IMG/VR virus record: IMGVR_UViG_3300028145_000001
Location: 1 to 42,526 of that record
DNA from: a virus
Lineage: Duplodnaviria > Caudoviricetes
Direction: 5' to 3' (one strand)
Length of the DNA stretch: 42,526 nucleotides
Position 1 is the stretch's first letter. The number at the start of each line of letters is the position of its first letter. The notes beneath the pieces are model-generated. The model was not told where the DNA came from. It ran no database searches and worked only from the letters and a program-made list of their open reading frames with translations. The translations under genes and the position numbers were made by a program. Below, one piece after another: positions 1-42,526 of this stretch.

Positions 1-127
1 TGCCTGTGATTGTCCACGTCGAACCAGAAGTATTGACACAAAAGAATTGTAGGTAAGTTCCCGCAGTTATAGCGTTCAGCCCGTCGCCTAATCCCGTCTC
101 GCACCGTAGCTTGTTATACGGTGAAGC
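1..127. repeat. Terminal direct repeat, left copy (circular-assembly overlap)
   Basis: Identical to 42400-42526. The 127-bp length is a typical assembler k-mer, and the ORF across the join stays in frame. Confidence 0.97.
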
Positions 128-2143
128 GAGCGTAGGAGAGGCAGATGTACCGCCGAGCGCTCCTGCGAGTTGCACAATGCCCGCTTGTCCAGTGGTTGCT
201 AATGGGACTTCCAAACTGATGCTATCGGTATTACCGCTCGCGGAAGTCTGAACGACTAGATTCTGATTGTTAGCTCCAGCGGCCGGTGTGGTGGAGTTGA
301 AATTCTTGATAGCTTTGGTAGTCGCGCTGCCATTGACTTGTACTTGGATGCTCTTGCCGCCGCTGATACTAGAAGCGTTCAATTCAGAAGGCAAAATGTT
401 CCGTATTATCGCTTGCGTTCCAGCTCCACCATTTCCTGAAAAAACATACCAGTAAGAGAGGCCATTCGCCGGTGGCGTAGTGCCTACATCGCTCAAATCC
501 CCGTCTATGGTGGTTGACATTTGAGCGAAATGGTTGGCGGTCGCACCATTGTCGAAAACTACTGAGCAAAAACCGATGATACATTCTCCGGTTGATCCTA
601 CCAGTCCCGGCGCAGCACCATTCAATATAACGGCAACGCCGATAGGGGCGTTCGTGGTCGTAGTTGTGTGATTACAAATGATTGCCTTGGCAGCACCATC
701 ATCACAGGACATTTTATTCGCGGTTGTTCCGGTGACGGCATTATTAGGTACCCAAAAGTTGTAGGCTCCAGATGAGTTCACATCAAAACCAAAATCATTT
801 CTGGCCGCATGGGCTCTATCATCCAAAATAGAGCCGTCTACAAGTGTGATCGCTCCGCTGGCTACTGGAACCTTTCCCGAGGTAAGCGCTCCCGACAAAT
901 TACCTGAGCCAACGCCGCATGTTGGGCAACTGATGTTAGGCGTAGCGCCACCAGTTGATACGATTGGCGCGGAGGCCGTCACGTTAGTTACTGTTCCGCT
1001 GCCCATATTGGCGCAATCAGCGATCCATTTTGTTGTGGAATTCGGGTCTACACGTATTCTGCAAAACACATTCGCTGCTACGGCAAGCGTGGCACCTCCA
1101 TTGATTGTCCAAGTCGTCGGGGTGATCGTGTCAGCATGTGTTGAATGATTGCTATATATGAAAACGAAGCCGGGATTGATTCCCAGCGTATCGGCCGTGG
1201 GCAATGTAACCGTGACAGACTGTGATGCCGCAACATCATGATCAATCGTAGTCAATTGATCAGCAAGCGCTATTGTGTAGGTGGTCGTTGCCCCATTTAT
1301 TGAAGTGTCTATCGCTCCAGCGGTGCAGTTGTTAACGAACGGTGGCCCAGTGGTGTCCCAACAAGGAACGTCACCATCGATCGGAGAGGTATTGCTCACC
1401 AGCCAGAAGGTGTTCCCGTCCAATGCATTCACTGGTGCCAAGTCTTGCAGCGTTTTTTGTCCAGCGACTACCGACACTCCTAGAACGTCGCCACTGGTGA
1501 AGGTGCTCGCCGCGGGGAACAGCGCCACATTGGTATCAGCCCCATTCCATAAATGGACATTCAGAAGAGTAGTGTCCAGGCAGATTTGTCCTGTGGCCGT
1601 AGCTGTGCATCCGGCACTGTTCGGGATAGCCAACGAAGTGCCAAGAAAATTCACGTTTCCATTGAAAAAACTAAGGTTGGTGATACCCAGGTTGAAAGCC
1701 TTGTCCACATTTGGATCTGGTATTTGATCCAACCTAGGAAAACCTGGCGGTGGTGGCGGGCCGGCACTAGTACTTCCTTGTGAAAAATAATTTGCGCCGT
1801 CATTCCAGAGATCAGCACCTTGATTAGATTGCAATATAAGGCTTGCATTTCCGTCAATTGTTCCGCTTACCGGAGTGATCGTAACCGTTCCAGCGCCGAT
1901 ATTCTTGACACTGAACATGATACCGGGGCCAGAACAAGGATCATTTGGAGCGAATAATGTGGCTGCAACAGCGGAACCATTGTTGAAAGTAACTAGTTTC
2001 GTGGCATCCGTGCAGACGAAAGTGTAGGTTGTTCCTGTTTGGGCATTCACTCCTGAGAGCATTCGCGCTGTATTGGTTTGCGCCATAGCGGGCAAAACGG
2101 TGAAAAAGGACAAAACGGTGAAAAGTCCTAGAAGTTTTCTCAA
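1..2143 (-). CDS. Origin-spanning signal-peptide tail-fibre-like protein, 5' part (790 aa in total; absent from the ORF track)
   Basis: TTG start at 2143 overlaps the upstream TGA. Translates MRKLLGLFTVLSFFTVLPAMA|QTNTARMLSGVNAQTGTTYTFVCTDATKLVTFNNGSAV..., with fibre-type repeats (TYT..D....V.LP...G....KN...TVTITP..TING) and many Cys. Open to base 1 and continues at 42399; 2143+230=2373 nt = 791 codons. Confidence 0.9.
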   Translation of the reverse strand, partial: MRKLLGLFTVLSFFTVLPAMAQTNTARMLSGVNAQTGTTYTFVCTDATKLVTFNNGSAVAATLFAPNDPCSGPGIMFSVKNIGAGTVTITPVSGTIDGNASLILQSNQGADLWNDGANYFSQGSTSAGPPPPPGFPRLDQIPDPNVDKAFNLGITNLSFFNGNVNFLGTSLAIPNSAGCTATATGQICLDTTLLNVHLWNGADTNVALFPAASTFTSGDVLGVSVVAGQKTLQDLAPVNALDGNTFWLVSNTSPIDGDVPCWDTTGPPFVNNCTAGAIDTSINGATTTYTIALADQLTTIDHDVAASQSVTVTLPTADTLGINPGFVFIYSNHSTHADTITPTTWTINGGATLAVAANVFCRIRVDPNSTTKWIADCANMGSGTVTNVTASAPIVSTGGATPNISCPTCGVGSGNLSGALTSGKVPVASGAITLVDGSILDDRAHAARNDFGFDVNSSGAYNFWVPNNAVTGTTANKMSCDDGAAKAIICNHTTTTTNAPIGVAVILNGAAPGLVGSTGECIIGFCSVVFDNGATANHFAQMSTTIDGDLSDVGTTPPANGLSYWYVFSGNGGAGTQAIIRNILPSELNASSISGGKSIQVQVNGSATTKAIKNFNSTTPAAGANNQNLVVQTSASGNTDSISLEVPLATTGQAGIVQLAGALGGTSASPTLASPYNKLRCETGLGDGLNAITAGTYLQFFCVNTSGSTWTITG

Positions 2144-3324
2144 GGGTGGATACCTGTGCAATTTATCTGCGTCCAATGCACCGCAGCCGCGCCAAGGGTT
2201 ACAGTTCGGACAGTCACCGAAATGGTGCTCTGAGAGGCTATCTGTAAATTGACTCGCCCCGTTGTCGGATTTGAGCCATCTACTGGAGTCACACCATTAC
2301 AAGTCACCGAATAATTGTTGTCAGCGAAAGCCACTGCCCATGAAATTGTGTTGTCGCAAGTATCGAACGAGCTATTGGTAGTAGTGCAGGGAGTGCCTGT
2401 AACGATGCACCCGCCAGGGCAATAGGTGATAGCCTGGACTTTGCTTGCTCCAATGCTGCATCCCGAAGTAGTTAGTCCGGAATTGGCATCAAGACAAACT
2501 GAAGTACCCGCTCCTCCTGCAATCGTTCCGGCCGTCATTAAGTGAGCATCGGTTCCCTGTGTCGCCACCTGTGGAGTGCCGCCATTAAGCGTGAAACTGT
2601 TTGCCAACAAGGTCGTAAAAATTGCCGAATTAGGAACAGTCACTCCTATGGAGCACGGCACTACCCAAGTGCATCCATTCAGAAGTCCAGCGTTGAGGTT
2701 GTTTACCTGCGTAGTGCTGGCAACGACTAGAGGAGCAGTGCCAGTTATTAGAGTAGAGATGATCTGCCCGCTGAATGTTCCAGTAGTGGCTGTAAATCCT
2801 CCGCTGAAGTTAGGCGTACCGGCAAAGGTAGGACTTCCGGTATAAGTTCCATTCAACGCTCCACCGCCATTGAGATTATTCGGACCGCTTGACGTGAAAC
2901 CGGAATTGAACGTCACCGCTCCATTGAAAGTTGATGTGTTGTTCCAAGTGTTCGTGCCGGTCCAAATGTTGTTCAATCCGAGCAGTGTATTATTGGCAGA
3001 AGAGATATTGTCCTCGCTCCAGAGTTGCACACCTAGCGATGTGCTGAGTACCAGCTTATAGGCCACGCCGGTTAGCCACACATCTGCGCGACCCGCACTG
3101 TCCAATTGGACCGGATTAGTATTTGGGATGAGTCCGTTTGAATCCCTGTAGGTGACGAGCGGGGTTGTGGTTCCGGCCTGGTAAGTTGCCAGCCTGCATC
3201 CTGTACATGGGCGGCCGCTATTATCGAAAAATTGGGACTTTGTGAACGGTAAAAGGGCCACTTGCGCGGAAACACCTCCCGCCAAGGCACACAACAGCGC
3301 AACGATAAGGAGTATTCTTTTCAT
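2140..3324 (-). CDS. Tailspike/fibre with podovirus head-binding (anchor) domain preceded by a Sec signal peptide
   Basis: MKRILLIVALLCALAGGVSA|Q, then QFFDNSGRP...ATYQAGTTTP...NTNPVQLDSAGRADVW...YKLVL...LWSEDNI, the common podovirus tail anchor motif. Lies after the ejection genes like P22 gene 9. Mature part has 12 Cys. Confidence 0.85.
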   Translation of the reverse strand: MKRILLIVALLCALAGGVSAQVALLPFTKSQFFDNSGRPCTGCRLATYQAGTTTPLVTYRDSNGLIPNTNPVQLDSAGRADVWLTGVAYKLVLSTSLGVQLWSEDNISSANNTLLGLNNIWTGTNTWNNTSTFNGAVTFNSGFTSSGPNNLNGGGALNGTYTGSPTFAGTPNFSGGFTATTGTFSGQIISTLITGTAPLVVASTTQVNNLNAGLLNGCTWVVPCSIGVTVPNSAIFTTLLANSFTLNGGTPQVATQGTDAHLMTAGTIAGGAGTSVCLDANSGLTTSGCSIGASKVQAITYCPGGCIVTGTPCTTTNSSFDTCDNTISWAVAFADNNYSVTCNGVTPVDGSNPTTGRVNLQIASQSTISVTVRTVTLGAAAVHWTQINCTGIHP

Positions 3325-3379: not shown

Positions 3380-3652
3380 ATGGTCCACTCTGCTGCGTGG
3401 GTCGCTTCACTCCTGTTTTTTATCGCGATCACTTTGGCCATCGTTGGCTTACTGATGCGCGTCATAGGAGAGCTTGCTTACCGCTGGGCCTGCCGACAAC
3501 CATGCTTTGAAGGATGCGAATGCGCTAAGTGCGTCATTGCACGGGCCCGTTATCGTCGCTTTGCTGACTGGCATTTGCGAGCGCCGCGGTATAGGCGCCT
3601 ACTCGTGCGTTCGCGGCTCCGAAAGTGGTTTTACCCTTCCCGGCCGCGTTAA
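3380..3652 (+). CDS. Putative small membrane protein (moron, antisense to late operon)
   Basis: N-terminal TM segment and Cys cluster. TG-TACGCT -10-like box 6 nt before the ATG suggests a leaderless mRNA. The 3' end overlaps the convergent gene by 119 nt. Confidence 0.45.
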   Translation: MVHSAAWVASLLFFIAITLAIVGLLMRVIGELAYRWACRQPCFEGCECAKCVIARARYRRFADWHLRAPRYRRLLVRSRLRKWFYPSRPR

Positions 3653-4928
3653 GTGCGATCGCCAACTTTGATTTAACCATTGGCATTCCTAGAACTTTTT
3701 CCAAAGTTGACGCAGCGACCGCCCCGGGTGCGCCTCCGAGTGCCGCACCTGCTCCTGCTGAAACTTTGGAACCTAGGCTGATAATGTCGTGATTCTCGAT
3801 TCTGCGCACTGCGCGCTCCAGCGCCGGCTGCAAGTCATAAAGTTTGCTCTGTGCCGCGTTCAAACCCTTGATTTCTGGGAATTGGGTTTCGAGTTCTTCC
3901 TTGATGCCTCGGGCCAGTGCTTTTTGCGCTTCGATCGTCGCGCTGCTCAATTCTCCATAGGCCTTGTCGCCTAACTGCTGGTAGGTTCCGGTTTTGATTT
4001 TCTGTGCTTGACTGGCCGGAATCTGATTTGGCTGACTGCGCAGAAATTCATTGCCTGATTCGGAAACTGCATCTAAGTCAGCTTCGGGGTTGACTTGGGT
4101 TGCGAATTGCTTGGAAGTTTTCCCCAAGCGGCTCGCCACAGCGTACTTATTGACCGTTGCTCCCCTTGCTGCTCCTGCGTCGATTTCCTCCTGCACGGCT
4201 CCATGCAAATCTTTGAGCAATCCGCTCAATTTAGCCGCACCTTCAGCACTTACTGGAATCTTGTTTTCCAGTCCCGTTTTCACCATCGACTGAACTTCGG
4301 CGCTGCTATATGACCCAGGCGGCGGCTTGAGGGCGCTCTGGTAAAGTTTCGGTGCCAATGCAGCAGCCGCTGGCCTTATCCTTCCCGCCTGTCCTCCGAC
4401 TCCAGCCGCGCCGCCGGCCATTTCAGCACCAGACAGTAAAGCCACCTCGGCCGCTTCGGGATTCCCTTTTAGCGCTTCAGGGGCATTCTTGAGCACGCCA
4501 TAACCGCCATGCGCGACCAGCGCAGCATCGACGGGAACGCCCGTCACTGGATTGGTATTCGCCAGCGCTATCCCGGCACCGAGGGCCACATTCTTAGGTT
4601 CTAGAGCATTGCTGATAAATCTTGCTCCGCGAGCTAGCAGGTCATAGTTATCCGAGGCCATTTCGGCAGAAGAGTAGCTCTGCGGATTCCTGCCCTTTGC
4701 TACCGTACTGAGATTTTCGGTCTGCTTCTCTTGGGACTTCCGTTGCGCCCAATCGGCTAAACTGGCCGTCAATTGTTGGATTTTCCCTGGCACATCGCCA
4801 GAATTGGAGATTCTGTCCCAGAAACTATTAGGGTCGTTGTGATCGGGCTCGTCGATTTTGTAACCTACCGGCAAAGGCGGTCCTGATGTATCGAGCGCAT
4901 ACCCGGCTGGAAGTGGCGGAGTGCCCAT
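3534..4928 (-). CDS. Internal virion/DNA ejection protein (third of three)
   Basis: Ala/Gly-rich and helical, with N-terminal PPLPxGYxxD repeats. Occupies the position of P22 gp16. Confidence 0.7.
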   Translation of the reverse strand: MGTPPLPAGYALDTSGPPLPVGYKIDEPDHNDPNSFWDRISNSGDVPGKIQQLTASLADWAQRKSQEKQTENLSTVAKGRNPQSYSSAEMASDNYDLLARGARFISNALEPKNVALGAGIALANTNPVTGVPVDAALVAHGGYGVLKNAPEALKGNPEAAEVALLSGAEMAGGAAGVGGQAGRIRPAAAALAPKLYQSALKPPPGSYSSAEVQSMVKTGLENKIPVSAEGAAKLSGLLKDLHGAVQEEIDAGAARGATVNKYAVASRLGKTSKQFATQVNPEADLDAVSESGNEFLRSQPNQIPASQAQKIKTGTYQQLGDKAYGELSSATIEAQKALARGIKEELETQFPEIKGLNAAQSKLYDLQPALERAVRRIENHDIISLGSKVSAGAGAALGGAPGAVAASTLEKVLGMPMVKSKLAIALNAAGKGKTTFGAANARVGAYTAALANASQQSDDNGPVQ

Positions 4929-6412
4929 TAGATCGGTTTCCCTGTCGCGGCATCAACCCACTTGCCGCCATCCACAACGATTTTGTGGCCATTCGGGCCT
5001 GTAGCCGTCTTCGCTCCTGCGGGCGGAGTGTATGACTTGGTGGCCGCGCCACCGCCAGTATCAATCTGTGTGAGTTTCTTGTGTGTATCAGTGACGATCT
5101 GCCGATGCTGTTCTGGGCTGTTCGCGTTATTCAAAGCCTGCCGGGATTCGTCCAGAATGCTCTGCTTTTGCAGGAGCTTTCCATGTACTTCGCTCATTAG
5201 CGATTGAATCTGGCCCCGCTGCGAATCCGTAATGCTTAGAGCCTTTGATGGGTCAAGTTGCCATTTATTAAGGGCGGCTTTGAGGCTTTCAAGATTCGAA
5301 CGACCGCCGACGATACGCGAGATTTCCGCTTCATTCATGCGCAAGCCGGAGCCCGCACCGCCGGCCATGACCGTAAGTAACTCAGGCGCCACCAAAGCAT
5401 CGGCCTGTGGTGTCTTCTGGCCTAGCGTATCCTGCAAGCGCCCAAATCTGGCTACCGCGTCCTCGATCGGCTTCCCCACCTTATCGATTTGCCCGGCCGC
5501 AAACTGATAGCTCTTATCTGCACGAGTATCATTGCGGGCCTGTTGGGCCAGTACCATTGTCTGCTTGCGCGTCTCATTGGAGATATCTTGCTGCGCTTTG
5601 GTTCCTTGCGCATTCTCGGTCTGAGTCAGCATTTTGTCGATGCGGTCAAAGTCTTTTTGTGTCGCGGTCGCTGGCAATGTGAACTGCGCGGGCAGAGCCT
5701 TGCCCGGATTGAGCACCTGATACCGGGTAGCCAATCCCTGATTCATCTGGTCCACGTTCGGCAGCGGCAACTCTCCTTCTTTGGCCGCTCCAGCAGCCCG
5801 GATCTTGGCCGCATCAAGTGTCGTCTGTTCCTTTTGCTGCGCTGGCGACTGGGCAATGGCAGTATCAACCATCTGCTGAAACTGTTGCGGATTCGAGTCG
5901 ATAATCTTCCGCATCTGTTGAATCTGTGGGCTGTCTCCCAATTCATTCAGGATGGTATGCGCAACGTTCGGATCGTACTTCGCTTGCTTAATCGCATAAG
6001 CCGCATGGCCGAGCAAGTCGGATTGGCCTTCCTGAATCTTTTGACTTTGTTCGATGAGAGCTTGCTTTGATTTCTGAAAATTAGTGACACTTTCAAGGAT
6101 CGAAGGGATTGCGCCACCATGTCCGGACAAAGCGAGCGCTTTCGACAGACCGTTAGTGTCTATTGTAGGCTGTCCTTGTGAATCAACGCTCATTGCACTC
6201 TTATAAGCGTCGTTGATAGCTTGTTGCTGTTCAAGTTGGCGCTTCTGGGATTCGATCTGCTGTTTTTGCAGTTCTTGCTGGCCAGGAGCAAGGGCCGCCT
6301 GTTGAGAGACTTGTTGCTGCAAACCTTGATTTTGTAGATTAAGGTTCTGCTGCTCTCCCCAATCTCGAATCTGGGGCGGGCGACCCATCAGAGCCACCAA
6401 GGGAATCCCCAT
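4928..6412 (-). CDS. Internal virion/DNA ejection protein (second of three)
   Basis: Gln-rich coiled-coil. Occupies the position of P22 gp20. Confidence 0.7.
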   Translation of the reverse strand: MGIPLVALMGRPPQIRDWGEQQNLNLQNQGLQQQVSQQAALAPGQQELQKQQIESQKRQLEQQQAINDAYKSAMSVDSQGQPTIDTNGLSKALALSGHGGAIPSILESVTNFQKSKQALIEQSQKIQEGQSDLLGHAAYAIKQAKYDPNVAHTILNELGDSPQIQQMRKIIDSNPQQFQQMVDTAIAQSPAQQKEQTTLDAAKIRAAGAAKEGELPLPNVDQMNQGLATRYQVLNPGKALPAQFTLPATATQKDFDRIDKMLTQTENAQGTKAQQDISNETRKQTMVLAQQARNDTRADKSYQFAAGQIDKVGKPIEDAVARFGRLQDTLGQKTPQADALVAPELLTVMAGGAGSGLRMNEAEISRIVGGRSNLESLKAALNKWQLDPSKALSITDSQRGQIQSLMSEVHGKLLQKQSILDESRQALNNANSPEQHRQIVTDTHKKLTQIDTGGGAATKSYTPPAGAKTATGPNGHKIVVDGGKWVDAATGKPI

Positions 6413-6420
6413 CAGATACC

Positions 6421-6438
6421 CTTTCTACGCGTAGAAAG
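6421..6438. promoter_or_regulatory. Perfect 18-bp palindrome overlapping the RBS of the ejection gene
   Basis: CTTTCTACGCGTAGAAAG is self-complementary and lies 8 nt upstream of the ATG at 6412. Confidence 0.5.
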
Positions 6439-6478
6439 TGAGATTTGCGGCGCCATTTTTATTCTAGGCCTCTTGGTA

Positions 6479-7327
6479 TCATCCCGGCTGTCCATAGTCC
6501 TCTGTGCCTTGTCTGGCGAAACTGTTGATTAATGGGCTGGGCCTACTGAAGTTGAACATATTACCCAGATTACCGATGCCGCCAAGGGAGTTTGTGATTC
6601 CGCCCAGTGCTCCCTGCCAAGCGTTGTTTGCGCCAATGTAGCCGCTTGCGCGGGCCGCGCCTGCATTGTTGATGTCTCCAGTGAGTAGGTGTGACGTGTC
6701 GGAATTGATTCCTGCGATATTGCCCGCGCCAGCTTGCAAAAGCCCACCGAGGGAAGAGCCAGCTTGTGCGCCGAGGCTAGAAACGCCCGCCAGCCGGTTA
6801 TACAGGTTGTTCTGGTTAGAGTTGAAGGTGTTGAAATTCGTCCCATAGGTTTGCAGCGCTCGGTTGTAAACGTTGCCATATTCGTTCGAGGCTGAATTCT
6901 GGGCGTAGTCATTGATATTCTTGGCTGTGCCACTCGACAGAAGCCCGCCACGCGCTGCGGCTGAGTTTTGTAGAGCGCTGAGTCCCTGTTGGAGCCTGAA
7001 CTGATAGCCTGGATCATTCTGTTCAGTGACTCCGGTCGGTGTCGTGAAAGAACCATAGCCCTGAGTAAGCGAGCCGCCGGGCTGCAAAAGACTTGAAAGA
7101 TTTCCTATCGCAGATTGGCCGGCTGTATTGTAAGGCTGGAGAGCCGCTGTCTGCTGTCCGGCTACGCCTGTTTGGTAATTCGTTGATAGGGTTTGATTAT
7201 CGCGAGCCGCCTGTGCGGCTTGATTTGCGGCTGCCTGCTGTGCTTTGGCGGCTTTGTCCGCAGCGCTTGAACCGAGGATTCCACCGAGTAAACTCCCGCC
7301 AATTCCGACTGCTGCGCCAATGGGCAT
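6479..7327 (-). CDS. DNA transfer/ejection protein (P22 gp7-like)
   Basis: Hydrophobic Gly-rich N-terminus and the PGYQFRLQQG...SAAARGGLLSSG motif typical of podovirus DNA transfer proteins. Confidence 0.8.
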   Translation of the reverse strand: MPIGAAVGIGGSLLGGILGSSAADKAAKAQQAAANQAAQAARDNQTLSTNYQTGVAGQQTAALQPYNTAGQSAIGNLSSLLQPGGSLTQGYGSFTTPTGVTEQNDPGYQFRLQQGLSALQNSAAARGGLLSSGTAKNINDYAQNSASNEYGNVYNRALQTYGTNFNTFNSNQNNLYNRLAGVSSLGAQAGSSLGGLLQAGAGNIAGINSDTSHLLTGDINNAGAARASGYIGANNAWQGALGGITNSLGGIGNLGNMFNFSRPSPLINSFARQGTEDYGQPG

Positions 7328-7785: not shown

Positions 7786-8606
7786 GGCTTGTACTGAAAT
7801 TGCGTTCCATCGTAAATCGCTAGAACGTATTGACCCGCTGAAATGTCGGCCGCTGCGAGATTCACGAGAGCGCCGCCGACCCATTTCTTGATGTTCTTAA
7901 CCGCCAATCCATTTACTGCGAGAGTGGAAGCGCCGGCGTTCGCATTAACCGCCAAGAAAGACACGCGCAAACCATTGAAATAAGCAACAATGGCTGGCAC
8001 TAGAGCCACTGCATAGGCTCCCGCTGTCCCTGTATCAACTCCGAAATTGTAAGAAAAAGCCTGTACTTCTGTTTTTTTGGCGAAGTCCGCTGGAATATCG
8101 AGCGACACTAGAGCCCGGAAAGACGGCGGCGCGGCACCACCAAATGCCGGACCGGACCATACCGTGTTCGGAGTTTCTGCTGCTTTAATGACCGCTATCG
8201 TCCCTGGTCCCGTACCTGAGACGGTAAATTCAGCCGGCATGGTCAGATTGGTGGTCAAACTGGCAGAAGGACTCTTCCAATCTACGCCATCCGCTTTTGT
8301 CGGGTCGGATGTGAGAACCGTCCCCGCTGCTCCTACTGCTTTTAGATCGGTGGTATTAGGCCCTGTGCCGACCAGCAGATTGCCTTTTACCCAGGCAGTC
8401 TGACCTGTACCACCTAGCGCGGGAGGATAATCACCTGCCTGCGGAACGATGGCTCCGGTACGACCGAATACCGAAGTAACCAACACTGTCCCTATCTGCG
8501 TGAAAATATCTTGGAACCACTTAATCCAAGGAAGAGAGATACCGCTTCCTTGATCGTTATTTTCCGCGAAAGGCGTTCGTACCGGAGGGGGAACAATCTG
8601 CGCCAT
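7782..8606 (-). CDS. Tail needle/short fibre protein
   Basis: PPP.RTP...PWIKWF N-terminus and fibre motifs VTSVFGRTGA, GGTGQT, NAGASTLAVNGL. Sits at the gp26 position. No signal peptide and no Cys. Confidence 0.7.
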   Translation of the reverse strand: MAQIVPPPVRTPFAENNDQGSGISLPWIKWFQDIFTQIGTVLVTSVFGRTGAIVPQAGDYPPALGGTGQTAWVKGNLLVGTGPNTTDLKAVGAAGTVLTSDPTKADGVDWKSPSASLTTNLTMPAEFTVSGTGPGTIAVIKAAETPNTVWSGPAFGGAAPPSFRALVSLDIPADFAKKTEVQAFSYNFGVDTGTAGAYAVALVPAIVAYFNGLRVSFLAVNANAGASTLAVNGLAVKNIKKWVGGALVNLAAADISAGQYVLAIYDGTQFQYKP

Positions 8607-10201
8607 TAGGCCCCAATCTCCGCATAACCGGCTATGATTCTCCAGGGAACAGGATCAGTCATGGCAATCTGATACACACGATCCCTAGAACGCCCAAGCC
8701 TGCGCTTCATCACACGAGCTTTGAATTCCCCGGCCTTCCCGCAATCTAGAATGTACTCATTGCTCCAGGTGTGGGAATCATCGCTCCAGCTAATTGAAAT
8801 CTGCGGAGCACGTTCGACGGTTCCATTTGGACTTGTAATGGCTATCCCTGTGAAATTGACGTAGAAAACGAATCGCCCTGTACCATTCTGGCTGACCATC
8901 GGTAATACGGTCGGATAGTTGGCGTTGTACGGAACCGAAGTCAGCGTAATAGCGCCAATCAGATTTACGCCAAGGCGCCACGAAGTAGTGTTGGTGTCGG
9001 CATCATTGAAAAACAAAGTCTGCGGTGTTCCCGTTGCCCCGCCAGTCGTTGTCAAGATGCCGATATTGTTGATGCCCATAGACCACAGGGCATTACTAGA
9101 ATCAATCAGAATGATGCTGGTAGGTAGGTCACTACCGGGTAAGGCAGGAATAGGCCCCAGGCCAGTTTCTAAGAATATTTGCACTTGATGGTGTGCTACA
9201 AAGTGCTGATCATCCGAAACGTGCGCTGCGCGTCTTACCCGGCGAATCAAAGCGCCATCATCGGTTGCAAAATCCCAGGTTGAGCCATTCCACTTTGGGA
9301 TTTCCATGTCATAAATCTTATTGCTTTCGCGGCCTCCAACCAGATGCTTTCCGAAATTGAAAGTATGAAACTGGCTCAAATGTCCGCGGAAGAAACCGAA
9401 GTTTACGTCCCAAAAACCGACTTCATGCCACATATTCGTGGCCGTATCGTAGCGCCAGGTCTTTCCTGCCGAGGGAAAATCCAACTGATAGAAGTAGTGC
9501 CCTTCCATCTGAAAACTGTAGCCAATCGCATCATCGACTCTGCTGTACCCTTGCATGGCGAATTCGATGGCATGGTTGGAGACTCGTGCAGGTGTATAGC
9601 CTTGCGCTCGCCAGACTACCGCAGCACCGCGATCATCGGAACCGAGCCAGAAAACCGTATTATCGAGCTTCACAGGAGAGAACTTCGCCGCACATCCCTG
9701 TTCGATGTACCCGCCCGGCACAACGTCAAACGGGAATATGTTCCCTGAGTCGTAGTACACCACGCACTTTGTTGCGCTCCACAACCAGATTTCACGATGA
9801 TCCACGAGCATGGAGACAAGATTGTCGGGGAACACGGAGACGAGCGCAGCGCCATTTGTTGTCCAATCTGTAGCATCAAGAGGCCCTGATACATAGAAGC
9901 GATTTGAATCGGCAATCAGCGCGATAAAGAAACTATCCGAGTAACCGACTAATGAGACTGGCCCTGTGAAGTTCGCGGCGGGGATAGTGCTTAGAGCGTT
10001 GGTTGCCAGATTGAATAGATATAAAGCTCCGCCACTGGCGATGATTAACTGTTGGGCGCTCGCTGCCATTGAAACCGGCAAGCTGTCATTTGCGATCAAT
10101 CCTTCGCTTGCGGCGGTGGAATTCACGAATATCTCAAACAGAGTATTGTCCGCCGCTCCAAATGTTCGGCCATTGATTGTGAATAGTCCTCGGATGCTCA
10201 T
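8606..10201 (-). CDS. Tail hub / packaged DNA stabilization protein gp10-like, main (C-terminal) part
   Basis: Contains IRGL..., GYIEQGCAAKFS, RVSNHAIE, TWRYD...WHE and WSDD.HTWSNE...GKAGEFKARV..RRLGRSRDRV....TDPV. Confidence 0.85.
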   Translation of the reverse strand: MSIRGLFTINGRTFGAADNTLFEIFVNSTAASEGLIANDSLPVSMAASAQQLIIASGGALYLFNLATNALSTIPAANFTGPVSLVGYSDSFFIALIADSNRFYVSGPLDATDWTTNGAALVSVFPDNLVSMLVDHREIWLWSATKCVVYYDSGNIFPFDVVPGGYIEQGCAAKFSPVKLDNTVFWLGSDDRGAAVVWRAQGYTPARVSNHAIEFAMQGYSRVDDAIGYSFQMEGHYFYQLDFPSAGKTWRYDTATNMWHEVGFWDVNFGFFRGHLSQFHTFNFGKHLVGGRESNKIYDMEIPKWNGSTWDFATDDGALIRRVRRAAHVSDDQHFVAHHQVQIFLETGLGPIPALPGSDLPTSIILIDSSNALWSMGINNIGILTTTGGATGTPQTLFFNDADTNTTSWRLGVNLIGAITLTSVPYNANYPTVLPMVSQNGTGRFVFYVNFTGIAITSPNGTVERAPQISISWSDDSHTWSNEYILDCGKAGEFKARVMKRRLGRSRDRVYQIAMTDPVPWRIIAGYAEIGA

Positions 10202-11097
10202 GGAGCATTCACGAAAGCAGCGGTGAGCATTCTTGCCTCATTGACAGGCCCGCCAGGAAAATTATTCCATGAAGGGGTATAGAGTGCCGGAGGAGCCTGG
10301 GTACTACCAGCAAGCGAATAAACCCCAACCGATCCACGGTCGCCAATGCCAGTCGCTTTTCGCAACAGTGGGCTATTTGCTGTCGTGGTCCCAGCACCTT
10401 GAACTAGGCTTATCAACCCCGTATAAACCGAAGGAGTAACAGGAGACCCGCTGTACGATGTATCTGGAGTATTGACAGTCTGCGTGCTTGCTGCCGAAAC
10501 GTGCAAAGTGGTCAAGAATCTAACAGGGAAAAACCACCCGTTCGCGTCACCGTTCGTGTTGCTTCCTCCCCAGGTGATCGTCATCACATAATTTCCAACG
10601 GGAACGTGATTTGTCGCCGTCCCGTAGAACAAATAGAGCTGCTTGCCTAGGGCCGGGAATATGTCATACGCGGCGTTATAAGTGACACCAGAGCCCGGAA
10701 GCGCTGAGTAAGTAGCTCCGGTAACCGATTCACTGACTCCGACGATTGGAAATGTGTTGCCAGTGGATAATTGACTGGTTACAGTGAAAATTACCAAGTC
10801 CCCAGGAAATATTTCCCCTGTGGACCACGGTACATTCGTCCTGCTGTTGCCGCTCGAAGTGCCCACATAAACCATCTGAAAGAAGCTACCGAATACCGGA
10901 ATGTCTGCAGGTGGAATTGGTGGTCCTACCGGGGAGAGAATCACAAATGACTTCAGACCGGGTGCAGGGTAGAGAACAATTTCATTGTTGCCCATGCCTA
11001 ATTCGATGCGTTCCGGGTAAAGATTTATCGTGCTTTGGGCATCGGCATTGCTCGACTGGCTTGTATAACTAGGGCCGATCAAGGGGAATTTTGGCAT
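10198..11097 (-). CDS. gp10-like N-terminal segment fused to a beta-sandwich domain
   Basis: The first ~55 aa (FPLIGPSYTSQS.NADAQSTINLYPE...LYPAPGLKSF) match the usual gp10 N-terminus. The remaining ~240 aa are unrelated beta-rich sequence. Confidence 0.75.
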   Translation of the reverse strand: MPKFPLIGPSYTSQSSNADAQSTINLYPERIELGMGNNEIVLYPAPGLKSFVILSPVGPPIPPADIPVFGSFFQMVYVGTSSGNSRTNVPWSTGEIFPGDLVIFTVTSQLSTGNTFPIVGVSESVTGATYSALPGSGVTYNAAYDIFPALGKQLYLFYGTATNHVPVGNYVMTITWGGSNTNGDANGWFFPVRFLTTLHVSAASTQTVNTPDTSYSGSPVTPSVYTGLISLVQGAGTTTANSPLLRKATGIGDRGSVGVYSLAGSTQAPPALYTPSWNNFPGGPVNEARMLTAAFVNAP

Positions 11098-11840
11098 CAG
11101 TGACGGCCGCCAACAATGGAATCAGAACGGTAATCGTAATGTCCGCCCTCTGAAGATAGTGCTGGGTCACAGAATGACTGAATCAGCGGCAGATTCATGC
11201 TTCTGACGCGAGCCAGAGATTCCGTTGCCAGTGTTTGCGAAACTCCCACTGTTACTTGACTGTATTCGCCCGGCATTTCCGCAATGAGTCTAATGGCCAA
11301 GTTGTACCGCAGCGCTTCTAAGTAGCCAGGCGGGAAAGTCAGATCGGTAACAAGGTCAGGAAATTGATTAAGTGCTTGCCAACTGTAAATCCGCGTATTG
11401 ACCGGAATCGTCGGGATGGTCCAGTAGTTCAGATTCCGCAACGGAAACGCGCCGTCGTCATAGACTTGCAGCGGAAGGCTGCCCGGTACCAACTTGACTG
11501 GAATCTCATCCTGCCAATCAGCATCGGTCAGCATCTCCATTGGCAGCTCGAGCGGCTGTGCCGGATTGTTCAGCGAAACGATACTGATTCGCTCAATTTT
11601 GGCTGGCCGCGCAACATTGAAATTCCCGCCAGGCCCCATTGTGTAGGTTTGCTGCCCTGGAACTAGCGGGAATTCCTGAATGTTGATTGTGAACGCCATC
11701 AAACGCTCAGCCTGCCAACTGTCCAGCATCTGATTGAGCACCATCAGACCATCCGCCGCTTCATCAGCAGGCATGGTTTCGCCGGATGCCAGAGCGCCGA
11801 TTAGGCGCATCGAGCTTGAAATCAGGTCTTGGGCGTTGAT
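11097..11840 (-). CDS. Head-tail adaptor (P22 gp4-like)
   Basis: A..DGL.VLNQMLDSW and PPGYLEALRYNLAIRL motifs plus synteny. Start probably at ATC 11840; the first ATG is at 11810. Confidence 0.8.
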   Translation of the reverse strand: MNAQDLISSSMRLIGALASGETMPADEAADGLMVLNQMLDSWQAERLMAFTINIQEFPLVPGQQTYTMGPGGNFNVARPAKIERISIVSLNNPAQPLELPMEMLTDADWQDEIPVKLVPGSLPLQVYDDGAFPLRNLNYWTIPTIPVNTRIYSWQALNQFPDLVTDLTFPPGYLEALRYNLAIRLIAEMPGEYSQVTVGVSQTLATESLARVRSMNLPLIQSFCDPALSSEGGHYDYRSDSIVGGRH

Positions 11841-34634: not shown

Positions 34635-34987
34635 GTTGCCTCCGGTGGATAAATCGTACCCTTCGCTACTTGGCAGTGAATGTGTTCGTTGTCCATCCCT
34701 GGGTCTTCGAGAAAAGCATAGAAGCGCGGTCCCAAGTGGAGGAGCAGGGTTTGCAACGCATGCTCCGGGTTTAGTAGATCGTGTGTTCGTATGTCATAAG
34801 CCTCGCCACGGTGGTGCGGGTCTTCCGGCCCTGAATGCTCTCCATCGCAAGCAGATGTAATCGTCAGATCGTGCTTTATCTCTTTCGCTGTCAGGGCTAT
34901 GGCGCTTAGAAGGTCAAAACCGCCTGGAGCTATGACCGTGAAAATAACGCCAGGCTTAGTGCGAACTACGTAAATCGTGGAAGCCAT
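34631..34987 (-). CDS. Endolysin, peptidase M15 (Hedgehog/DD-peptidase fold)
   Basis: ITS..DGEH....PHHRGEAYDIR...EHIH zinc-ligand pattern. Confidence 0.8.
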   Translation of the reverse strand: MASTIYVVRTKPGVIFTVIAPGGFDLLSAIALTAKEIKHDLTITSACDGEHSGPEDPHHRGEAYDIRTHDLLNPEHALQTLLLHLGPRFYAFLEDPGMDNEHIHCQVAKGTIYPPEAT

Positions 34988-37368
34988 CAGTTATTTTGTA
35001 ACTGCACCCAATTTGTGCCGGACGCCGCCAAGGAAACCAGCTTTGACTGCAAGACTAGAGTGGCCTTATTGGCTACTGTGATGTTCGCAGCGCCGTCGAT
35101 AGTCTCCGAACCGAAGGGAATCACGGTACAGGTATTGGCGCCACTGGTGGTGACGTTTTTGACGGTGATAGTCTGCCCGGTCATCCCGACAGATGTCGGC
35201 AACTGGATATTTACACTGTTCGTTGTTGTGTTGCAGTTAATATATACATCGGAATCAAAAGCATAGTAAGTGGTCGTTCCAGCCGCACCTTTGAACGCTG
35301 CGATTCCGGTACCGACAGTGGCTGACGCGCTGACAGTGATGCTATTCGTATATCCCGATGCGGCAGCAACAGCGCTTTGGTCACCTATTGTGCTGACCGA
35401 GGAAGCTGTTTGTGCCCTTATGACCATGCTGGGAACATAGCCGGGATTGAAAGTTATAAAAGGACCACCAAAGACGAAGGCATATCCAATCAGTAGATCA
35501 TTCGCCTGAGTTGTAGTGATTGCTGCGCTGGTGAGAGAAGTACCAGTTCCAGTTGCTATGGGAGAGTTAGCATCAAGAGGAGTTACCGTGGCCACGTCCT
35601 TGTACTCGTTGCAGGCCACATAAACAAGAGTAGTGGAGGCGCTGAAGGTCAGGATAACGGTCTCTGCTCCACCGACGATATTGGGAGTGAACCATGCCTG
35701 CACTTTTTGGCTTGCAACTGTAGAAGCGGCAGTTACCGCAGTCCATGTATTCGTCTGCGAATCCGTGACCGTCGATAGGTTCTGCCCTGATGACCACGAC
35801 ATAGCGCAGAAAAGCAAACTTCCTGCCGTAGTGTTGGTAGTGAATACCTCGTTGACTGGAGAACCGGACCCGGCACTGAATATTTGCACATTTATGCCGC
35901 GCCCATTCTTGATATTGTTACCTACGGCCGTATTAGCGCTCGTAGTATCCTTACGGCCAAACAAACGATTAATGCCACGAGCGGCAATCTGCGCCATTCT
36001 TTGCTGTCCTAGCGCTGTAGGGTGCAGCCCATCACTGAACCAAGTAGCGTTAGCTGAAGCGCCATCGGCGCCTAAAACCGGGTCGGACGCAAGATCAATC
36101 AATCCATCAGCAAAGGTTTGCCAGTTCTGTCTGATAAGAGGATTAAAACCGTTTTTCGTGGTGTCGGCACCAGTACGGCTCATGACCGTCATCGGAAGGC
36201 ACTTTCCTCCAAGCAACCGTACCTGGGTGCATTGTCCCTTCATGTAGGCAAGGCTGACAGCGAAGGACGCATCGGTGTTGATACCGAGAGATGGGATGAA
36301 AATGTTCTTCAGAGTGTTCTGCCGGATAAGAGGTAATATTCCGTTAGCCATCAGGGGATTCATCGAAGTAAAAGTCTGACCGGACAACGCTTCAGCGCTT
36401 GACTGGTAAGATTGCTCAAGTATATTTACAGCGCCGATGGAGAAATCCACTGGCCAGGGAGGTTGACCGTTGCCTCCAAGGATTGAATCACCAAGAGAGA
36501 ATAGCTGATCGTTGTTGGCTTCCGTTCCGCCAAGGAAGGGCGGGAATCCTTGCCCCTGCCCGTACTGCGCCAGCGCCGCGGCGTCTTGTGCCGCCTCTGC
36601 CGCTGTCAGTACCCGGTTGAAGAACCGCAGCCGCACGATGGTCCCGGTGAAATAGGTTTGTGCAGCAAGTCCGCTTCCGGCCGCAGTCCCGCAGACCTGA
36701 TACACACCCGTCGTCTGCAAACCCGCCGAAGCACCCTGCACAAAGTAAAAAACAGGCTCGACGCCGTTCATGTAGATGTGATCTGATGCCGCCATCGTGG
36801 CGATCAAGGCAGCATTCCCGTTCATTATGTCGATGCCTCCAGTCTTTCTGAGACTGTTACCATAGACGCTGACCGCCCCTCCGCCTTGGACAAGATTCGA
36901 TCCGGGGCTTCCAAAGAACAGGGCGAGCCCGTTGGCGTTACTCGCTGCTCCGTTACCGTTTCCAAATACAATGCCATTGACGGCTTGGGTATTTGAATTT
37001 GACTGGTAGGAGACGTAGGCTTCGATGGTTAGAGCAGAGTTGAGGGCTGCCGGCAGTAGAACGCCACCATTTCCTGTGCAGACCAAGCCAGCCGTGCTGG
37101 CTGAAATTGTTGGAGCCGTGCCTACTGTGCCCGTGGCGTTATTGCCGGAACCGGACGAATCGGGCAATGAAGCTACCGTATCCCCTGGGCTCATCTTGTA
37201 GTCGGCCAACAGGCCATTGGTGACCCAAATCACTGGCACTGAGGACTGCGTAACGGAGCTGCCACTGCTGCCACCAATCGCCGGGCTTGAATAAGCTCCG
37301 CTCTGCCCAAATGCCGAGCCAGCCCCAAACAGAATGAACAGCAGAAAAGTGAGAGTCTTTTTCATCAT
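34987..37368 (-). CDS. Signal-peptide protein: LamG-like + SGNH esterase + beta-sandwich + fibre domain
   Basis: Signal ...GAGSAFG|Q; YFTG.IVRLRFFNRVLTAAE (LamG); GDS, GIN and DGLHP (SGNH blocks); C-terminal LP....GQTITVKN...ETIDG fibre module. Confidence 0.85.
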   Translation of the reverse strand: MMKKTLTFLLFILFGAGSAFGQSGAYSSPAIGGSSGSSVTQSSVPVIWVTNGLLADYKMSPGDTVASLPDSSGSGNNATGTVGTAPTISASTAGLVCTGNGGVLLPAALNSALTIEAYVSYQSNSNTQAVNGIVFGNGNGAASNANGLALFFGSPGSNLVQGGGAVSVYGNSLRKTGGIDIMNGNAALIATMAASDHIYMNGVEPVFYFVQGASAGLQTTGVYQVCGTAAGSGLAAQTYFTGTIVRLRFFNRVLTAAEAAQDAAALAQYGQGQGFPPFLGGTEANNDQLFSLGDSILGGNGQPPWPVDFSIGAVNILEQSYQSSAEALSGQTFTSMNPLMANGILPLIRQNTLKNIFIPSLGINTDASFAVSLAYMKGQCTQVRLLGGKCLPMTVMSRTGADTTKNGFNPLIRQNWQTFADGLIDLASDPVLGADGASANATWFSDGLHPTALGQQRMAQIAARGINRLFGRKDTTSANTAVGNNIKNGRGINVQIFSAGSGSPVNEVFTTNTTAGSLLFCAMSWSSGQNLSTVTDSQTNTWTAVTAASTVASQKVQAWFTPNIVGGAETVILTFSASTTLVYVACNEYKDVATVTPLDANSPIATGTGTSLTSAAITTTQANDLLIGYAFVFGGPFITFNPGYVPSMVIRAQTASSVSTIGDQSAVAAASGYTNSITVSASATVGTGIAAFKGAAGTTTYYAFDSDVYINCNTTTNSVNIQLPTSVGMTGQTITVKNVTTSGANTCTVIPFGSETIDGAANITVANKATLVLQSKLVSLAASGTNWVQLQNN

Positions 37369-37805
37369 CCACCCGTAATTGTTGCGGTGATCGTGACGCT
37401 ATTCGTTCTCGACCGCATCAAAAGGCGCGCATATTTAGCGTTCACCAGAACCGCATCCAAGTGGAAGGTTTGGTTCGTGGCATCAACGGTCGTCACGTTG
37501 CAATTTGAACAAGTCTGGTAGTTCGTGTCTGAGTCGGTAGCAGCCACCTGCACATCGACCTCAAACGCGCCAGGTGCGCCGCTGAATTTCCCGTCTACGC
37601 TGAAAGGGCTACCTGAGCGGCCTATTGCAGCGACTAGTGCGACTTGCTGCGAGGCAGAGTTATTGCCGGCGCCAGGCGTCGGTGTCTCGGCAGACCAAAC
37701 TGCGATGACTTGCCCAGGCGCGCAATTGATCGGATTTGAAGCGTTGTAGACCGGCTGCGCGAAGGTGGCCGCAGTGATGAGAAACCATGCAAGTAAGCGT
37801 TTCAT
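37365..37805 (-). CDS. Signal-peptide jelly-roll-like protein (adaptor candidate)
   Basis: MKRLLAWFLITAATFA|Q; all-beta, with FEVDVQ.A.TD....Y...AKYARL. Confidence 0.75.
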   Translation of the reverse strand: MKRLLAWFLITAATFAQPVYNASNPINCAPGQVIAVWSAETPTPGAGNNSASQQVALVAAIGRSGSPFSVDGKFSGAPGAFEVDVQVAATDSDTNYQTCSNCNVTTVDATNQTFHLDAVLVNAKYARLLMRSRTNSVTITATITGG

Positions 37806-37933
37806 TTTGATTTTCCTTTAGTCTTTCGCCGCACAAATTGCCGGGAAATCATTTCTTGTTCTTCAAATAATCTTTGGATGGCGTGCATCATCTTTGTTTC
37901 TAGGATTGTCAAACGGACAGATTTTCTATTCAT
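37802..37933 (-). CDS. 43-aa basic protein
   Basis: MNRKSVRLTILETKMMHAIQRLFEEQEMISRQFVRRKTKGKSK, with ATGA overlaps at both ends. Confidence 0.5.
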   Translation of the reverse strand: MNRKSVRLTILETKMMHAIQRLFEEQEMISRQFVRRKTKGKSK

Positions 37934-42173: not shown

Positions 42174-42399
42174 TGAGTGAAACTAACCACCCAAGTTGTT
42201 TGCTTGCTCGTTCCATCGGCTATGAAAGTAAAGGAGATTGCGTCGTTGTTGGGTAGTGTGGTTGTGCCGCTCTGCGTGCCGGCTGCACCGCCGCCGCTCT
42301 TTGTGCTGTTGCAGGTGACTGCACCTGTAAGTAGCCCCGTACCGGCGTTGTTGGCGGCATTCAGAGTCGAGGTTCCCGCATTATCGGTCCAGCAGTTTA
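42170..42399 (-). CDS. Origin-spanning signal-peptide tail-fibre-like protein, 3' part
   Basis: Reads ...ITGINCWTDNAGTSTLNAANN...KQTTWVVSFTQ-stop. The TGA overlaps the ATG of 40470..42173. Confidence 0.9.
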
Positions 42400-42526
42400 T
42401 GCCTGTGATTGTCCACGTCGAACCAGAAGTATTGACACAAAAGAATTGTAGGTAAGTTCCCGCAGTTATAGCGTTCAGCCCGTCGCCTAATCCCGTCTCG
42501 CACCGTAGCTTGTTATACGGTGAAGC
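42400..42526. repeat. Terminal direct repeat, right copy (circular-assembly overlap)
   Basis: Identical to 1-127. Confidence 0.97.

What the first reader, a model, noticed from the sequence alone, without database searches (positions are those of the whole stretch)
2140..3324. Podovirus head-binding anchor domain behind a signal peptide, with an added CxxC
Seen: the signal peptide is followed directly by the canonical tail-anchor motif. Where I recall homologs reading PLAGGKL, this one reads PCTGCRL. The mature protein has 12 Cys. This is the strongest single link between the exported block and the virion, because the anchor's known role is to dock on the tail hub.
Basis: partly seen in the sequence, partly recalled or inferred. 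Interest (0 to 1): 0.8.

Follow-up and report, generated by a model that had tools for sequence, protein, structure and literature searches.

The report
Phage tail spike with export signal
The only recognisable tail-docking protein of this uncultured short-tailed phage begins with a sequence shaped like a bacterial secretion signal and carries cysteines in pairs, so it is likely exported and folded outside the cytoplasm and would join the virus particle only when the cell bursts, a route that our paper searches did not find described for tailed phages.

Summary
Confirmed. ORF 2140-3324 (-) of a complete P22-like phage encodes a 20-residue Sec-type leader, then a Pam1/Pan3/P22-type tailspike head-binding domain (profile E 1.4e-16 to 7EEQ; Z 10.2), a shaft and an H-type-lectin-like tip. 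The mature chain has 12 Cys. It is the only anchor gene found in the genome, and five leader-bearing, Cys-containing genes follow it. Among 266 homologs, 63 of 125 leader-bearing and 0 of 141 leaderless proteins have the CxxC. Cys counts are even in 103 of 119 versus 48 of 126. In GTDB genomes the leader occurs in 5 of 5 Acidobacteriota loci (one ambiguous) and 0 of 33 others. The anchor stays conserved (37 of 38 columns), and a complex prediction gives weak support for docking (0.46; best control 0.00). The CxxC is optional, one of several paired Cys gains, and best read as a structural disulfide. Best model: Sec export, periplasmic oxidative folding, attachment to the tail hub at lysis (0.62). 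Export, disulfides and virion incorporation are inferred, not shown. Earlier notes of this scan report the same pattern in other genomes; seven paper searches found no description.

The parts
2140..3324 (-). Tail spike/fibre gene, 394 aa: leader + head-binding anchor + shaft + lectin-like tip; 12 Cys in mature chain
3265..3324 (-). Sec/SPase I-type signal peptide, residues 1-20 (basic n-region, hydrophobic core, V-S-A|Q junction); predicted by heuristic
2995..3264 (-). Pam1/Pan3/P22-type tailspike head-binding domain, residues 21-110
   Evidence: profile E 1.4e-16 to 7EEQ; Z 10.2, rmsd 4.5, 89 aligned to 7EEQ; Z 9.5, rmsd 2.4, 83 aligned to P22 2VNL
3196..3207 (-). C40-x-x-C43 motif replacing the conserved L-x-G-G turn of leaderless homologs; predicted local disulfide
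2449..2994 (-). Low-confidence Thr/Gly/Asn-rich shaft (residues ~111-292) with 4 Cys (218, 224, 277, 289)
   Evidence: pLDDT mostly under 55
2143..2448 (-). C-terminal H-type-lectin/Gp53-like beta-sandwich tip (residues ~293-394) with 6 Cys; likely glycan receptor binding
   Evidence: discoidin I Z 8.8, R1 pyocin fibre Z 8.4, Helix agglutinin Z 7.9; feature score 0.92 to a cluster with H_lectin on 10% of members; no Pfam hit
1..2143 (-). 5' part of next gene (TTG start overlapping the anchor gene's stop); leader-bearing, 790 aa, 18 Cys, continues across the terminal repeat
42170..42526 (-). 3' end of the same wrap-around gene
34987..42173 (-). Four further leader-bearing, Cys-containing genes (40470-42173, 37930-40473, 37365-37805, 34987-37368; Ig-like, ASH and weak GDSL-like domains), none with an anchor match
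8606..11810 (-). Leaderless, Cys-poor tail hub: adaptor (11097-11810) and split gp10-like nozzle (10198-11097 + 8606-10201), the predicted docking partners
3534..7327 (-). Three leaderless, Cys-free ORFs in the ejection-protein slot directly upstream (6479-7327 matches phrog_598, DNA ejection); they define the tailspike slot

Best explanation
This gene encodes the only tailspike-type head-binding domain found in a complete P22-like phage genome, behind a predicted Sec signal peptide, so the spike is likely exported, would fold and form disulfides in the periplasm, and would dock on the cytoplasm-built tail hub only when lysis opens the inner membrane. Shown by sequence and calls: anchor homology, single copy, tailspike gene slot, leader features, paired cysteines, purifying selection, and restriction of the leader to Acidobacteriota loci among named genomes. 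Inferred: Sec export and SPase I cleavage at A20|Q21; disulfide formation (C40-C43 being one optional local bond that replaces a Leu/Gly packing contact); trimerisation; binding to the nozzle/adaptor junction at or after lysis; glycan binding by the lectin-like tip; an Acidobacteriota (probably Terriglobia) host. The anchorless exported neighbours may hang on the spike or act as free proteins; that is untested.
For: Anchor identity. Single anchor: 1 match in the window at E<=1; exactly one match, leader-bearing, in 5 of 5 records at least 90% complete (window, G806, G807, G809, G813). Same slot after the ejection genes as the leaderless tailspikes of cultured phages PBR31 and vB_PspP-H6/1; 4 of 4 cultured homologs fetched (of 33 records) start at the domain. 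Leader type: small-x-small-Q junction in 112 of 125; K/R in the first six residues in 110 of 113 short leaders; lipobox-like in 4 of 125. All 14 core virion/packaging genes scored lack such a leader. Oxidising compartment: even mature Cys count in 103 of 119 leader-bearing versus 48 of 126 leaderless (93 of 107 versus 23 of 43 for >=4 Cys). C40 occurs in 65 rows and C43 in 65 of 130 leader-bearing rows, 0 and 2 of 176 leaderless rows; Cys inside the domain number 2 in 73, 1 in 2, 3 in 4 and 0 in 46 leader-bearing proteins. Anchor not decaying: 37 of 38 columns conserved at >=70% in leaderless anchors have the same top residue in leader-bearing ones; dN 0.11-0.23 with dS >=1.2 or saturated in 6 of 6 pairs. 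Complex of 3 anchors + nozzle + adaptor: weak support, score 0.46, best control 0.00 (including nozzle replaced), run agreement >=53%, partner pLDDT >=79; the mark was reached by 116 of 157 solved and 2 of 215 mismatched pairs, but at <=0.60 by only 18 of 157 and both mismatches, and it may be recalled from solved Pam1/P22 tails. Host: 5 of 5 Acidobacteriota loci versus 0 of 33 others; nozzle tree groups all 13 leader-bearing phages in one 14-row clade, SH-aLRT 99. P22 heads and base-plate parts assemble in vitro (Israel 1967, title only seen in a reference list; details recalled).
Against: No proteomic, cleavage or virion evidence exists; the leader call is heuristic. In the window an in-frame GTG at V22 lies 12 nt after a GGAGGT, so a leaderless isoform is possible here; 9 of 15 leader-bearing loci have some in-frame start near the junction, though only 2 with an SD-like motif. 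One leaderless anchor (L026, MAG labelled Bacteroidetes) nests inside the leader-bearing nozzle clade. Independent-pairs test of leader versus CxxC on the 92-residue anchor tree had only 4 supported pairs and was not significant (median p 1), so the counts are not phylogenetically independent. A divergent second anchor type exists (L128, L129; E 4e-4 and 4e-5) and a very distant anchor could have been missed. 16 of 119 leader-bearing proteins have odd Cys counts, and 2 of the 5 downstream window genes have odd mature counts by my reading (37930-40473, 37365-37805).
Confidence: 0.62

Rival explanations
1. The protein is exported but acts free of the virion, as a secreted lectin, decoy or receptor-masking factor for the infected cell, with the anchor serving only to trimerise or to organise the exported neighbours.
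For: Five anchorless exported genes follow it. Secreted cellular relatives of phage fibres exist (Bdellovibrio MAT proteins carry a signal peptide, PMC10769870 passages; WceF appears at Z 6.6). An earlier scan note (e1-6220173) favoured a free enzyme for a similar gene. Divergent leader-bearing anchor-like genes lie in phage-like clusters interleaved with host genes (L136, L137).
Against: It would leave the phage with no recognisable tailspike anchor. The anchor is as conserved as in leaderless virion proteins and under purifying selection. The gene keeps the late-operon tailspike slot. No PF00589 integrase was found in the genome, which weakens lysogenic conversion for this phage. The domain was found in only 2 of 401 Acidobacteriota genomes sampled, so it is not a general host secreted family.
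Confidence: 0.17
2. Dual start: an internal start just after the leader makes an ordinary cytoplasmic tailspike for the virion, while the full-length form is exported for another role.
For: Window has GGAGGT then GTG at V22 (12-nt spacer), and the annotated ATG has no SD-like motif. 9 of 15 leader-bearing loci have an in-frame start within -3..+5 of the junction.
Against: 6 of 15 loci, including close relatives L002 and L004, have no such codon; only 2 of 15 have an SD-like motif with it. Many window genes lack an SD motif. Paired Cys throughout the chain fit an oxidising compartment, not cytoplasmic folding.
Confidence: 0.08
3. The leader is an uncleaved membrane tether: spikes are anchored on the periplasmic face of the inner membrane and particles acquire them while passing the membrane, or the phage leaves by a non-lytic route.
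For: A hydrophobic N-terminus could also act as a signal anchor; SAR-type tethers are known for phage endolysins (PMC6116005 passages). No endolysin or holin was recognised by Pfam or PHROGs.
Against: Canonical small-x-small|Q junctions in 112 of 125 leaders favour cleavage. ORF 34631-34987 has an H-x-x-G-x-A-x-D...H-x-H pattern with weak similarity (E ~0.9) to the hedgehog N-domain fold, read from recall as an M15-like endolysin, so ordinary lysis is likely.
Confidence: 0.08
4. The CxxC is a redox-active or metal-binding site that gates docking, rather than a plain structural disulfide.
For: C-x-x-C spacing; it lies in the virion-facing domain and is exclusive to leader-bearing forms.
Against: Absent from 62 of 125 leader-bearing homologs, and it differs between L002 and L003, whose nozzles are nearly identical. 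It sits in a loop before a beta-strand of a beta-sandwich, not at a thioredoxin helix N-terminus. Other homologs gained non-CxxC Cys pairs at several different sites.
Confidence: 0.05

Closest known systems
Cyanophage Pam1 tailspike head-binding domain (PDB 7EEQ) and Pan3 tail spike (9VYG, 9VYH)
   Same: Homologous N-terminal anchor (27-28% identity; profile E 1.4e-16 and ~2e-15; Z 10.2 and 8.9).
   Different: Here a 20-residue leader precedes the anchor, C-x-x-C replaces the L-D-G-A / V-P-G-A turn (alignment), and the body is a short shaft plus lectin-like tip. The Pam1 paper (Zhang 2022) was seen only as a reference entry.
P22 gp9 / Sf6 gp14 tailspike head-binding domain (1LKT, 2VNL, 8TVR, 7SG7)
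   Same: Same fold (Z 9.1-9.5, rmsd 2.4-4.3); same P22-like genome plan with coat PF11651 and portal PF16510; six trimeric spikes on the gp4/gp10 hub (PMC8402733 passage).
   Different: [quoted passage not shown]
Leaderless tailspikes of cultured phages Xanthomonas PBR31, Rhodoferax P26218, Shewanella X14, Pseudoalteromonas vB_PspP-H6/1
   Same: Same anchor family (41-48% identity); in PBR31 and H6/1 it is annotated directly after internal/ejection proteins.
   Different: All four annotated CDSs start at the domain with no leader.
Bdellovibrio MAT fibres; Pantoea WceF
   Same: Exported, phage-fibre-like or tailspike-like proteins (PMC10769870 passages; WceF entry title).
   Different: Chromosomal host proteins, not part of a virion operon; MATs have their own conserved N-terminal domain after the signal peptide.
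Filamentous phage pIII (recalled, no call) and Sec/SAR-exported endolysins (PMC6116005 passages)
   Same: Phage proteins that use Sec; pIII is a disulfide-bonded adhesin of a virion.
   Different: Inoviruses assemble in the membrane and are not tailed; exported endolysins are not virion parts.

Membership tests
Pam1/P22-type tailspike head-binding domain | Sequence homology to solved head-binding domains | tested here: met
   7EEQ E 1e-4; E 1.4e-16; 9VYG ~2e-15
Pam1/P22-type tailspike head-binding domain | Same beta-sandwich fold | tested here: met
   (pLDDT 72-90 over model residues 11-90), (top six rows all head-binding domains, Z 8.9-10.2)
Pam1/P22-type tailspike head-binding domain | N-terminal domain of the gene following the ejection proteins in a podovirus late operon | tested here: met
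Pam1/P22-type tailspike head-binding domain | Trimer docks at the adaptor-nozzle junction | tested here: inconclusive
   weak support, 0.46 versus best control 0.00; role in cyanophage A4 from PMC12002296 passage
Pam1/P22-type tailspike head-binding domain | Present in the mature virion | not testable with these tools
   no isolate or proteome available
Canonical cytoplasmic podovirus tailspike (P22 gp9 type) | Leaderless, made and folded in the cytoplasm | tested here: not met
   20-residue leader; internal start not conserved
Canonical cytoplasmic podovirus tailspike (P22 gp9 type) | Central parallel beta-helix glycanase | tested here: inconclusive
   no Pfam hit; shaft modelled at low confidence
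Sec/SPase I signal peptide | Basic n-region, hydrophobic h-region, small-x-small c-region | tested here: met
   (heuristic; SignalP not available)
Sec/SPase I signal peptide | Not a lipoprotein or Tat leader | tested here: met
   window leader has no lipobox or twin-Arg motif (sequence); lipobox-like 4 of 125, RRxFL-like 2 of 113
Sec/SPase I signal peptide | Export and cleavage in vivo | not testable with these tools
   needs reporter fusion or N-terminal sequencing
Thioredoxin-type redox CxxC | CxxC at the N-terminus of a helix in a thioredoxin fold, conserved in the family | tested here: not met
   loop before strand E24-29 of a beta-sandwich; absent in 62 of 125 leader-bearing homologs
H-type lectin / Gp53-like fibre tip | Discoidin/Helix-agglutinin beta-sandwich at the C-terminus | tested here: inconclusive
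   Z 8.8, 8.4, 7.9 and atlas 0.92, but no PF09458 hit
H-type lectin / Gp53-like fibre tip | Binds a glycan | not testable with these tools
   needs glycan array
Secreted cellular fibre (MAT/WceF type) | Chromosomal gene outside a virion operon | tested here: not met
   gene lies in a complete 42.5-kb virus record with direct terminal repeats

The most novel reading that the evidence does not exclude
A widespread clade of Acidobacteriota podoviruses builds its particle in two compartments: head and tail hub in the reducing cytoplasm, and the whole host-recognition apparatus (anchor-bearing spike plus several anchorless fibres and enzymes) in the periplasm as disulfide-bonded, N-terminally processed proteins. 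Infectious virions are completed only at lysis, making Sec, SPase I and the Dsb system host factors for tailed-phage morphogenesis.
Probability: 0.55. Interest if true: 0.88.

Novelty: new variant of a known kind. Interest (0 to 1): 0.72.

Why it matters
Tailed-phage particles are held to assemble wholly in the cytoplasm. A virion anchor that is the genome's only one and yet carries an export signal implies a final assembly step across the inner membrane. It would make receptor-binding proteins dependent on host secretion and disulfide enzymes, and it gives a simple marker (leader + anchor) for phages of Acidobacteriota, a major soil phylum (general knowledge). It predicts that these spikes must be expressed in the periplasm to fold. 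This 394-residue, single-copy gene with solved homologs is a clean test case.

Tried and rejected
Pfam gave no family for the protein or its last 86 residues; PHROGs gave only phrog_26190, unknown function. Dual start as a general mechanism was rejected but stays possible for this window. Lipoprotein and Tat leaders were rejected. The anchor-domain tree (306 rows, 95 columns) was too poorly resolved to count origins: 26 changes versus 97.9 shuffled, at least 4 forced by starred branches; the independent-pairs test was uninformative. The nozzle tree (47 of 89 rows kept after thinning near-identical leaderless ones) gave 2 changes. A phylum survey found few prophages: 2 of 401 Acidobacteriota and 5 of 401 Pseudomonadota genomes; 5 of 6 Pseudomonadota matches read as leaderless, one is cut by a contig end. 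A loose screen of downstream ORFs gave leader-like starts in 26 of 39 ORFs behind leader-bearing anchors and 8 of 155 behind leaderless ones, but it counts L047 and L024 copies more than once and several hits look spurious, so I give it little weight. Disulfide geometry could not be measured because model coordinates are not returned. The scan index held nothing for this genome or sequence. The 1967 P22 in-vitro assembly paper is not held. phiCbK, PMC12309495 and the HFTV1 preprint passages gave no precedent for an exported tail spike. Sequencing-run tools were not used.
Full report
Setting. The window is a complete virus record with a 127-bp direct terminal repeat. All recognised genes lie on the minus strand: terminase subunits, P22-like portal (PF16510), scaffold, P22 coat (PF11651), adaptor, gp10-like nozzle (phrog_578) and an ejection protein (phrog_598). 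No PF00589 integrase was found. The finding's ORF (2140-3324, 394 aa) follows the three ORFs of the ejection-protein slot.

Observation. Residues 1-20 read as a Sec leader: two basic residues, a hydrophobic core scoring 3.77 (highest of 19 genes scored; the 14 core virion and packaging genes score at most 2.25) and a V-S-A|Q junction. This is a heuristic, since SignalP is not available. The chain has 13 Cys, 12 after the leader, with C40-x-x-C43 at 3196-3207. Five more leader-bearing genes follow, one of 790 aa with 18 Cys that spans the terminal repeat.

Domain identity. Residues 23-117 match the Pam1 tailspike head-binding domain (7EEQ, E 1e-4). A 41-row domain profile gives E 1.4e-16 to 7EEQ and about 2e-15 to Pan3 9VYG. 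An AlphaFold2 model of the mature chain (mean pLDDT 59.6; 72-90 over the anchor; 57-89 over the tip) returns head-binding domains as the top six structural matches: Pam1 Z 10.2, P22 2VNL Z 9.5 (rmsd 2.4), Sf6 Z 9.1, Pan3 Z 8.9 (Foldseek agrees). The C-terminal ~100 residues match discoidin I (Z 8.8), the R1 pyocin fibre tip (8.4) and Helix agglutinin (7.9). The ESM Atlas top cluster (0.92) carries H_lectin on 10% of members, but Pfam gives no hit. In cyanophage A4 the trimeric head-binding domains contact adaptor and nozzle (PMC12002296, passage). P22 has six tailspike trimers on gp4/gp10 (PMC8402733, passage).

Leader and cysteines among homologs. The 266 homologs (the best 120 of 184; 146 new among the best 150 of 20,635, whose query included the leader and so favours leader-bearing rows) fall into 125 with a hydrophobic extension and 141 that start at the domain, with none in between. 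The CxxC occurs in 63 of 125 and 0 of 141 (7 of 23 and 0 of 97 in the set searched with the domain alone). Median Cys content is 1.84% versus 0.49%. Mature Cys counts are even in 103 of 119 versus 48 of 126. In the column table, C40 occurs 65 times and C43 65 times among 130 leader-bearing rows, 0 and 2 times among 176 leaderless rows. Leader-bearing proteins without the CxxC often show another Cys pair at different sites. This pairing is the usual signature of disulfides formed outside the cytoplasm (established knowledge). The CxxC itself is optional: P0002 and P0006 (86% and 73% identical in the domain) lack it, and L002 and L003 differ in it despite near-identical nozzles. These counts are not phylogenetically independent; the formal pairs test had 4 supported pairs and was not significant.

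Is the anchor still used? The profile finds one match in the window at E<=1 and exactly one, leader-bearing, in 5 of 5 records at least 90% complete. Four less complete records also have one each; G810 has three, two of them truncated repeats. Of 38 columns conserved at >=70% in leaderless anchors, 37 keep the same top residue in leader-bearing ones. dN is 0.11-0.23 with dS >=1.2 or saturated in 6 of 6 pairs. A predicted complex of three anchors with this phage's nozzle and adaptor scored 0.46 against a best control of 0.00 (weak support; run agreement >=53%, partner pLDDT >=79). The mark was reached by 116 of 157 solved and 2 of 215 mismatched pairs, but at <=0.60 by only 18 of 157 and both mismatches, and the pass may come from likeness to solved tails. 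Four cultured-phage homologs fetched (of 33 records) all start at the domain; PBR31 and H6/1 are annotated as tailspikes right after internal/ejection proteins.

Host range of the trait. Of 38 GTDB loci, all 5 labelled Acidobacteriota (Acidiferrales, gp2, Sulfopaludibacter, Bryobacterales, and Vicinamibacterales with an ambiguous leader) carry the leader; 0 of 33 others do. MAG labels can be wrong, but L016 lies on a 446-kb contig and L017 on a 4.55-Mb chromosome. A nozzle tree places all 13 leader-bearing phages in a 14-row clade (SH-aLRT 99) whose remaining row, L026, is leaderless. The window's nearest named relative on it is the Acidiferrales locus L009. The host of this phage is therefore inferred, not shown.

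Mechanism. The best reading (0.62) is Sec export, SPase I cleavage, oxidative folding and trimerisation in the periplasm, then docking on spike-less particles when lysis breaks the inner membrane. P22 heads and base-plate parts assemble in vitro (Israel 1967; only the title was seen, in a reference list; that this step is spontaneous is recalled). ORF 34631-34987 weakly resembles the hedgehog N-domain fold (E ~0.9), which I read from recall as an M15-like endolysin, so ordinary lysis is likely. Rivals: a free secreted lectin or decoy (0.17); a dual start giving a cytoplasmic isoform (0.08; the window has a GTG at V22 behind GGAGGT, but 6 of 15 loci have no internal start and only 2 have an SD-like motif); an uncleaved tether or non-lytic exit (0.08); a redox or metal role for the CxxC (0.05).

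Known systems and novelty. The protein works like a P22/Pam1 tailspike and its anchor passes the homology, fold and gene-order tests. It fails the defining leaderless, cytoplasmic feature of canonical tailspikes; a preprint legend states that P22 tailspike has no signal peptide since it needs no export (10.64898/2026.09.13.751334, passage). Exported fibre-like proteins are known from cells (Bdellovibrio MATs, PMC10769870, passages) and exported phage proteins from endolysins (PMC6116005, passages) and inovirus pIII (recalled). Seven searches aimed at a precedent (listings and abstract starts, with passages of four listed papers read) found no tailed phage with a Sec-exported virion spike. The library lacks most subscription papers, including the Pam1 structure paper, and no supplements were read. 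Eight earlier notes of this scan describe the same pattern in other genomes; they are unchecked AI notes and not support, but they show this is a recurring trait, not a first sighting within the scan. Verdict: observation confirmed, interpretation supported with the CxxC downgraded to an optional structural disulfide; new variant of a known kind, with an assembly route that would be new if shown; interest 0.72.

Noticed in passing
window 10198-11097 and 8606-10201 (-): The gp10-like nozzle is split: the first ~54 residues are fused to an extra ~245-residue domain in one ORF, the rest is the next ORF. The same split occurs in L001-L003; the nozzle is one ORF in L048 and L047. A different split nozzle is described for phage A1002 (PMC13730344, passages).
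   Followed up: partly
L136 (G001:C3:1-20000) and L137 (G019:C46:24000-43999): In two Acidobacteriota genomes a capsid-like gene (phrog_14242, E 1.8e-5), genes that look by eye like portal, scaffold and adaptor, and a 1526-1610-residue open frame for a leader-bearing, Cys-rich tailspike-like protein (PF12708 in L136) with a divergent anchor lie interleaved with host genes; possibly a domesticated or decayed particle module.
   Followed up: partly
window 18128-18547 (-): GroES/Cpn10 homolog between terminase and portal regions (PF00166, E 1e-11).
   Followed up: no
window 30262-30726 (-): Small protein with a leader-like start and a PEP-CTERM motif (PF07589, above cut-off).
   Followed up: no
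window 34631-34987 (-): Candidate M15-like endolysin unrecognised by Pfam and PHROGs; weak likeness to the hedgehog N-domain (E ~0.9), followed by small hydrophobic ORFs that may be holin or spanin genes.
   Followed up: partly
L047:9321-11625: The 5' part of the anchor gene occurs three times in tandem (two truncated); may be an assembly artefact.
   Followed up: no
L002:9377-10000: The anchor ORF has a long in-frame upstream extension that starts like a leader and then has about 190 unrelated codons before a second hydrophobic stretch; possibly an insertion into the leader.
   Followed up: no
L006:11610-13568, L014, L021, L024: Some phages with leaderless anchors have a leader-bearing gene just downstream, Cys-rich in L006 and L024, so export of tail-region proteins is not confined to the leader-anchor clade.
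   Followed up: no
L026:9986-11161: Leaderless anchor nested within the leader-bearing nozzle clade; MAG labelled Bacteroidetes, locus has many apparent frameshifts.
   Followed up: partly
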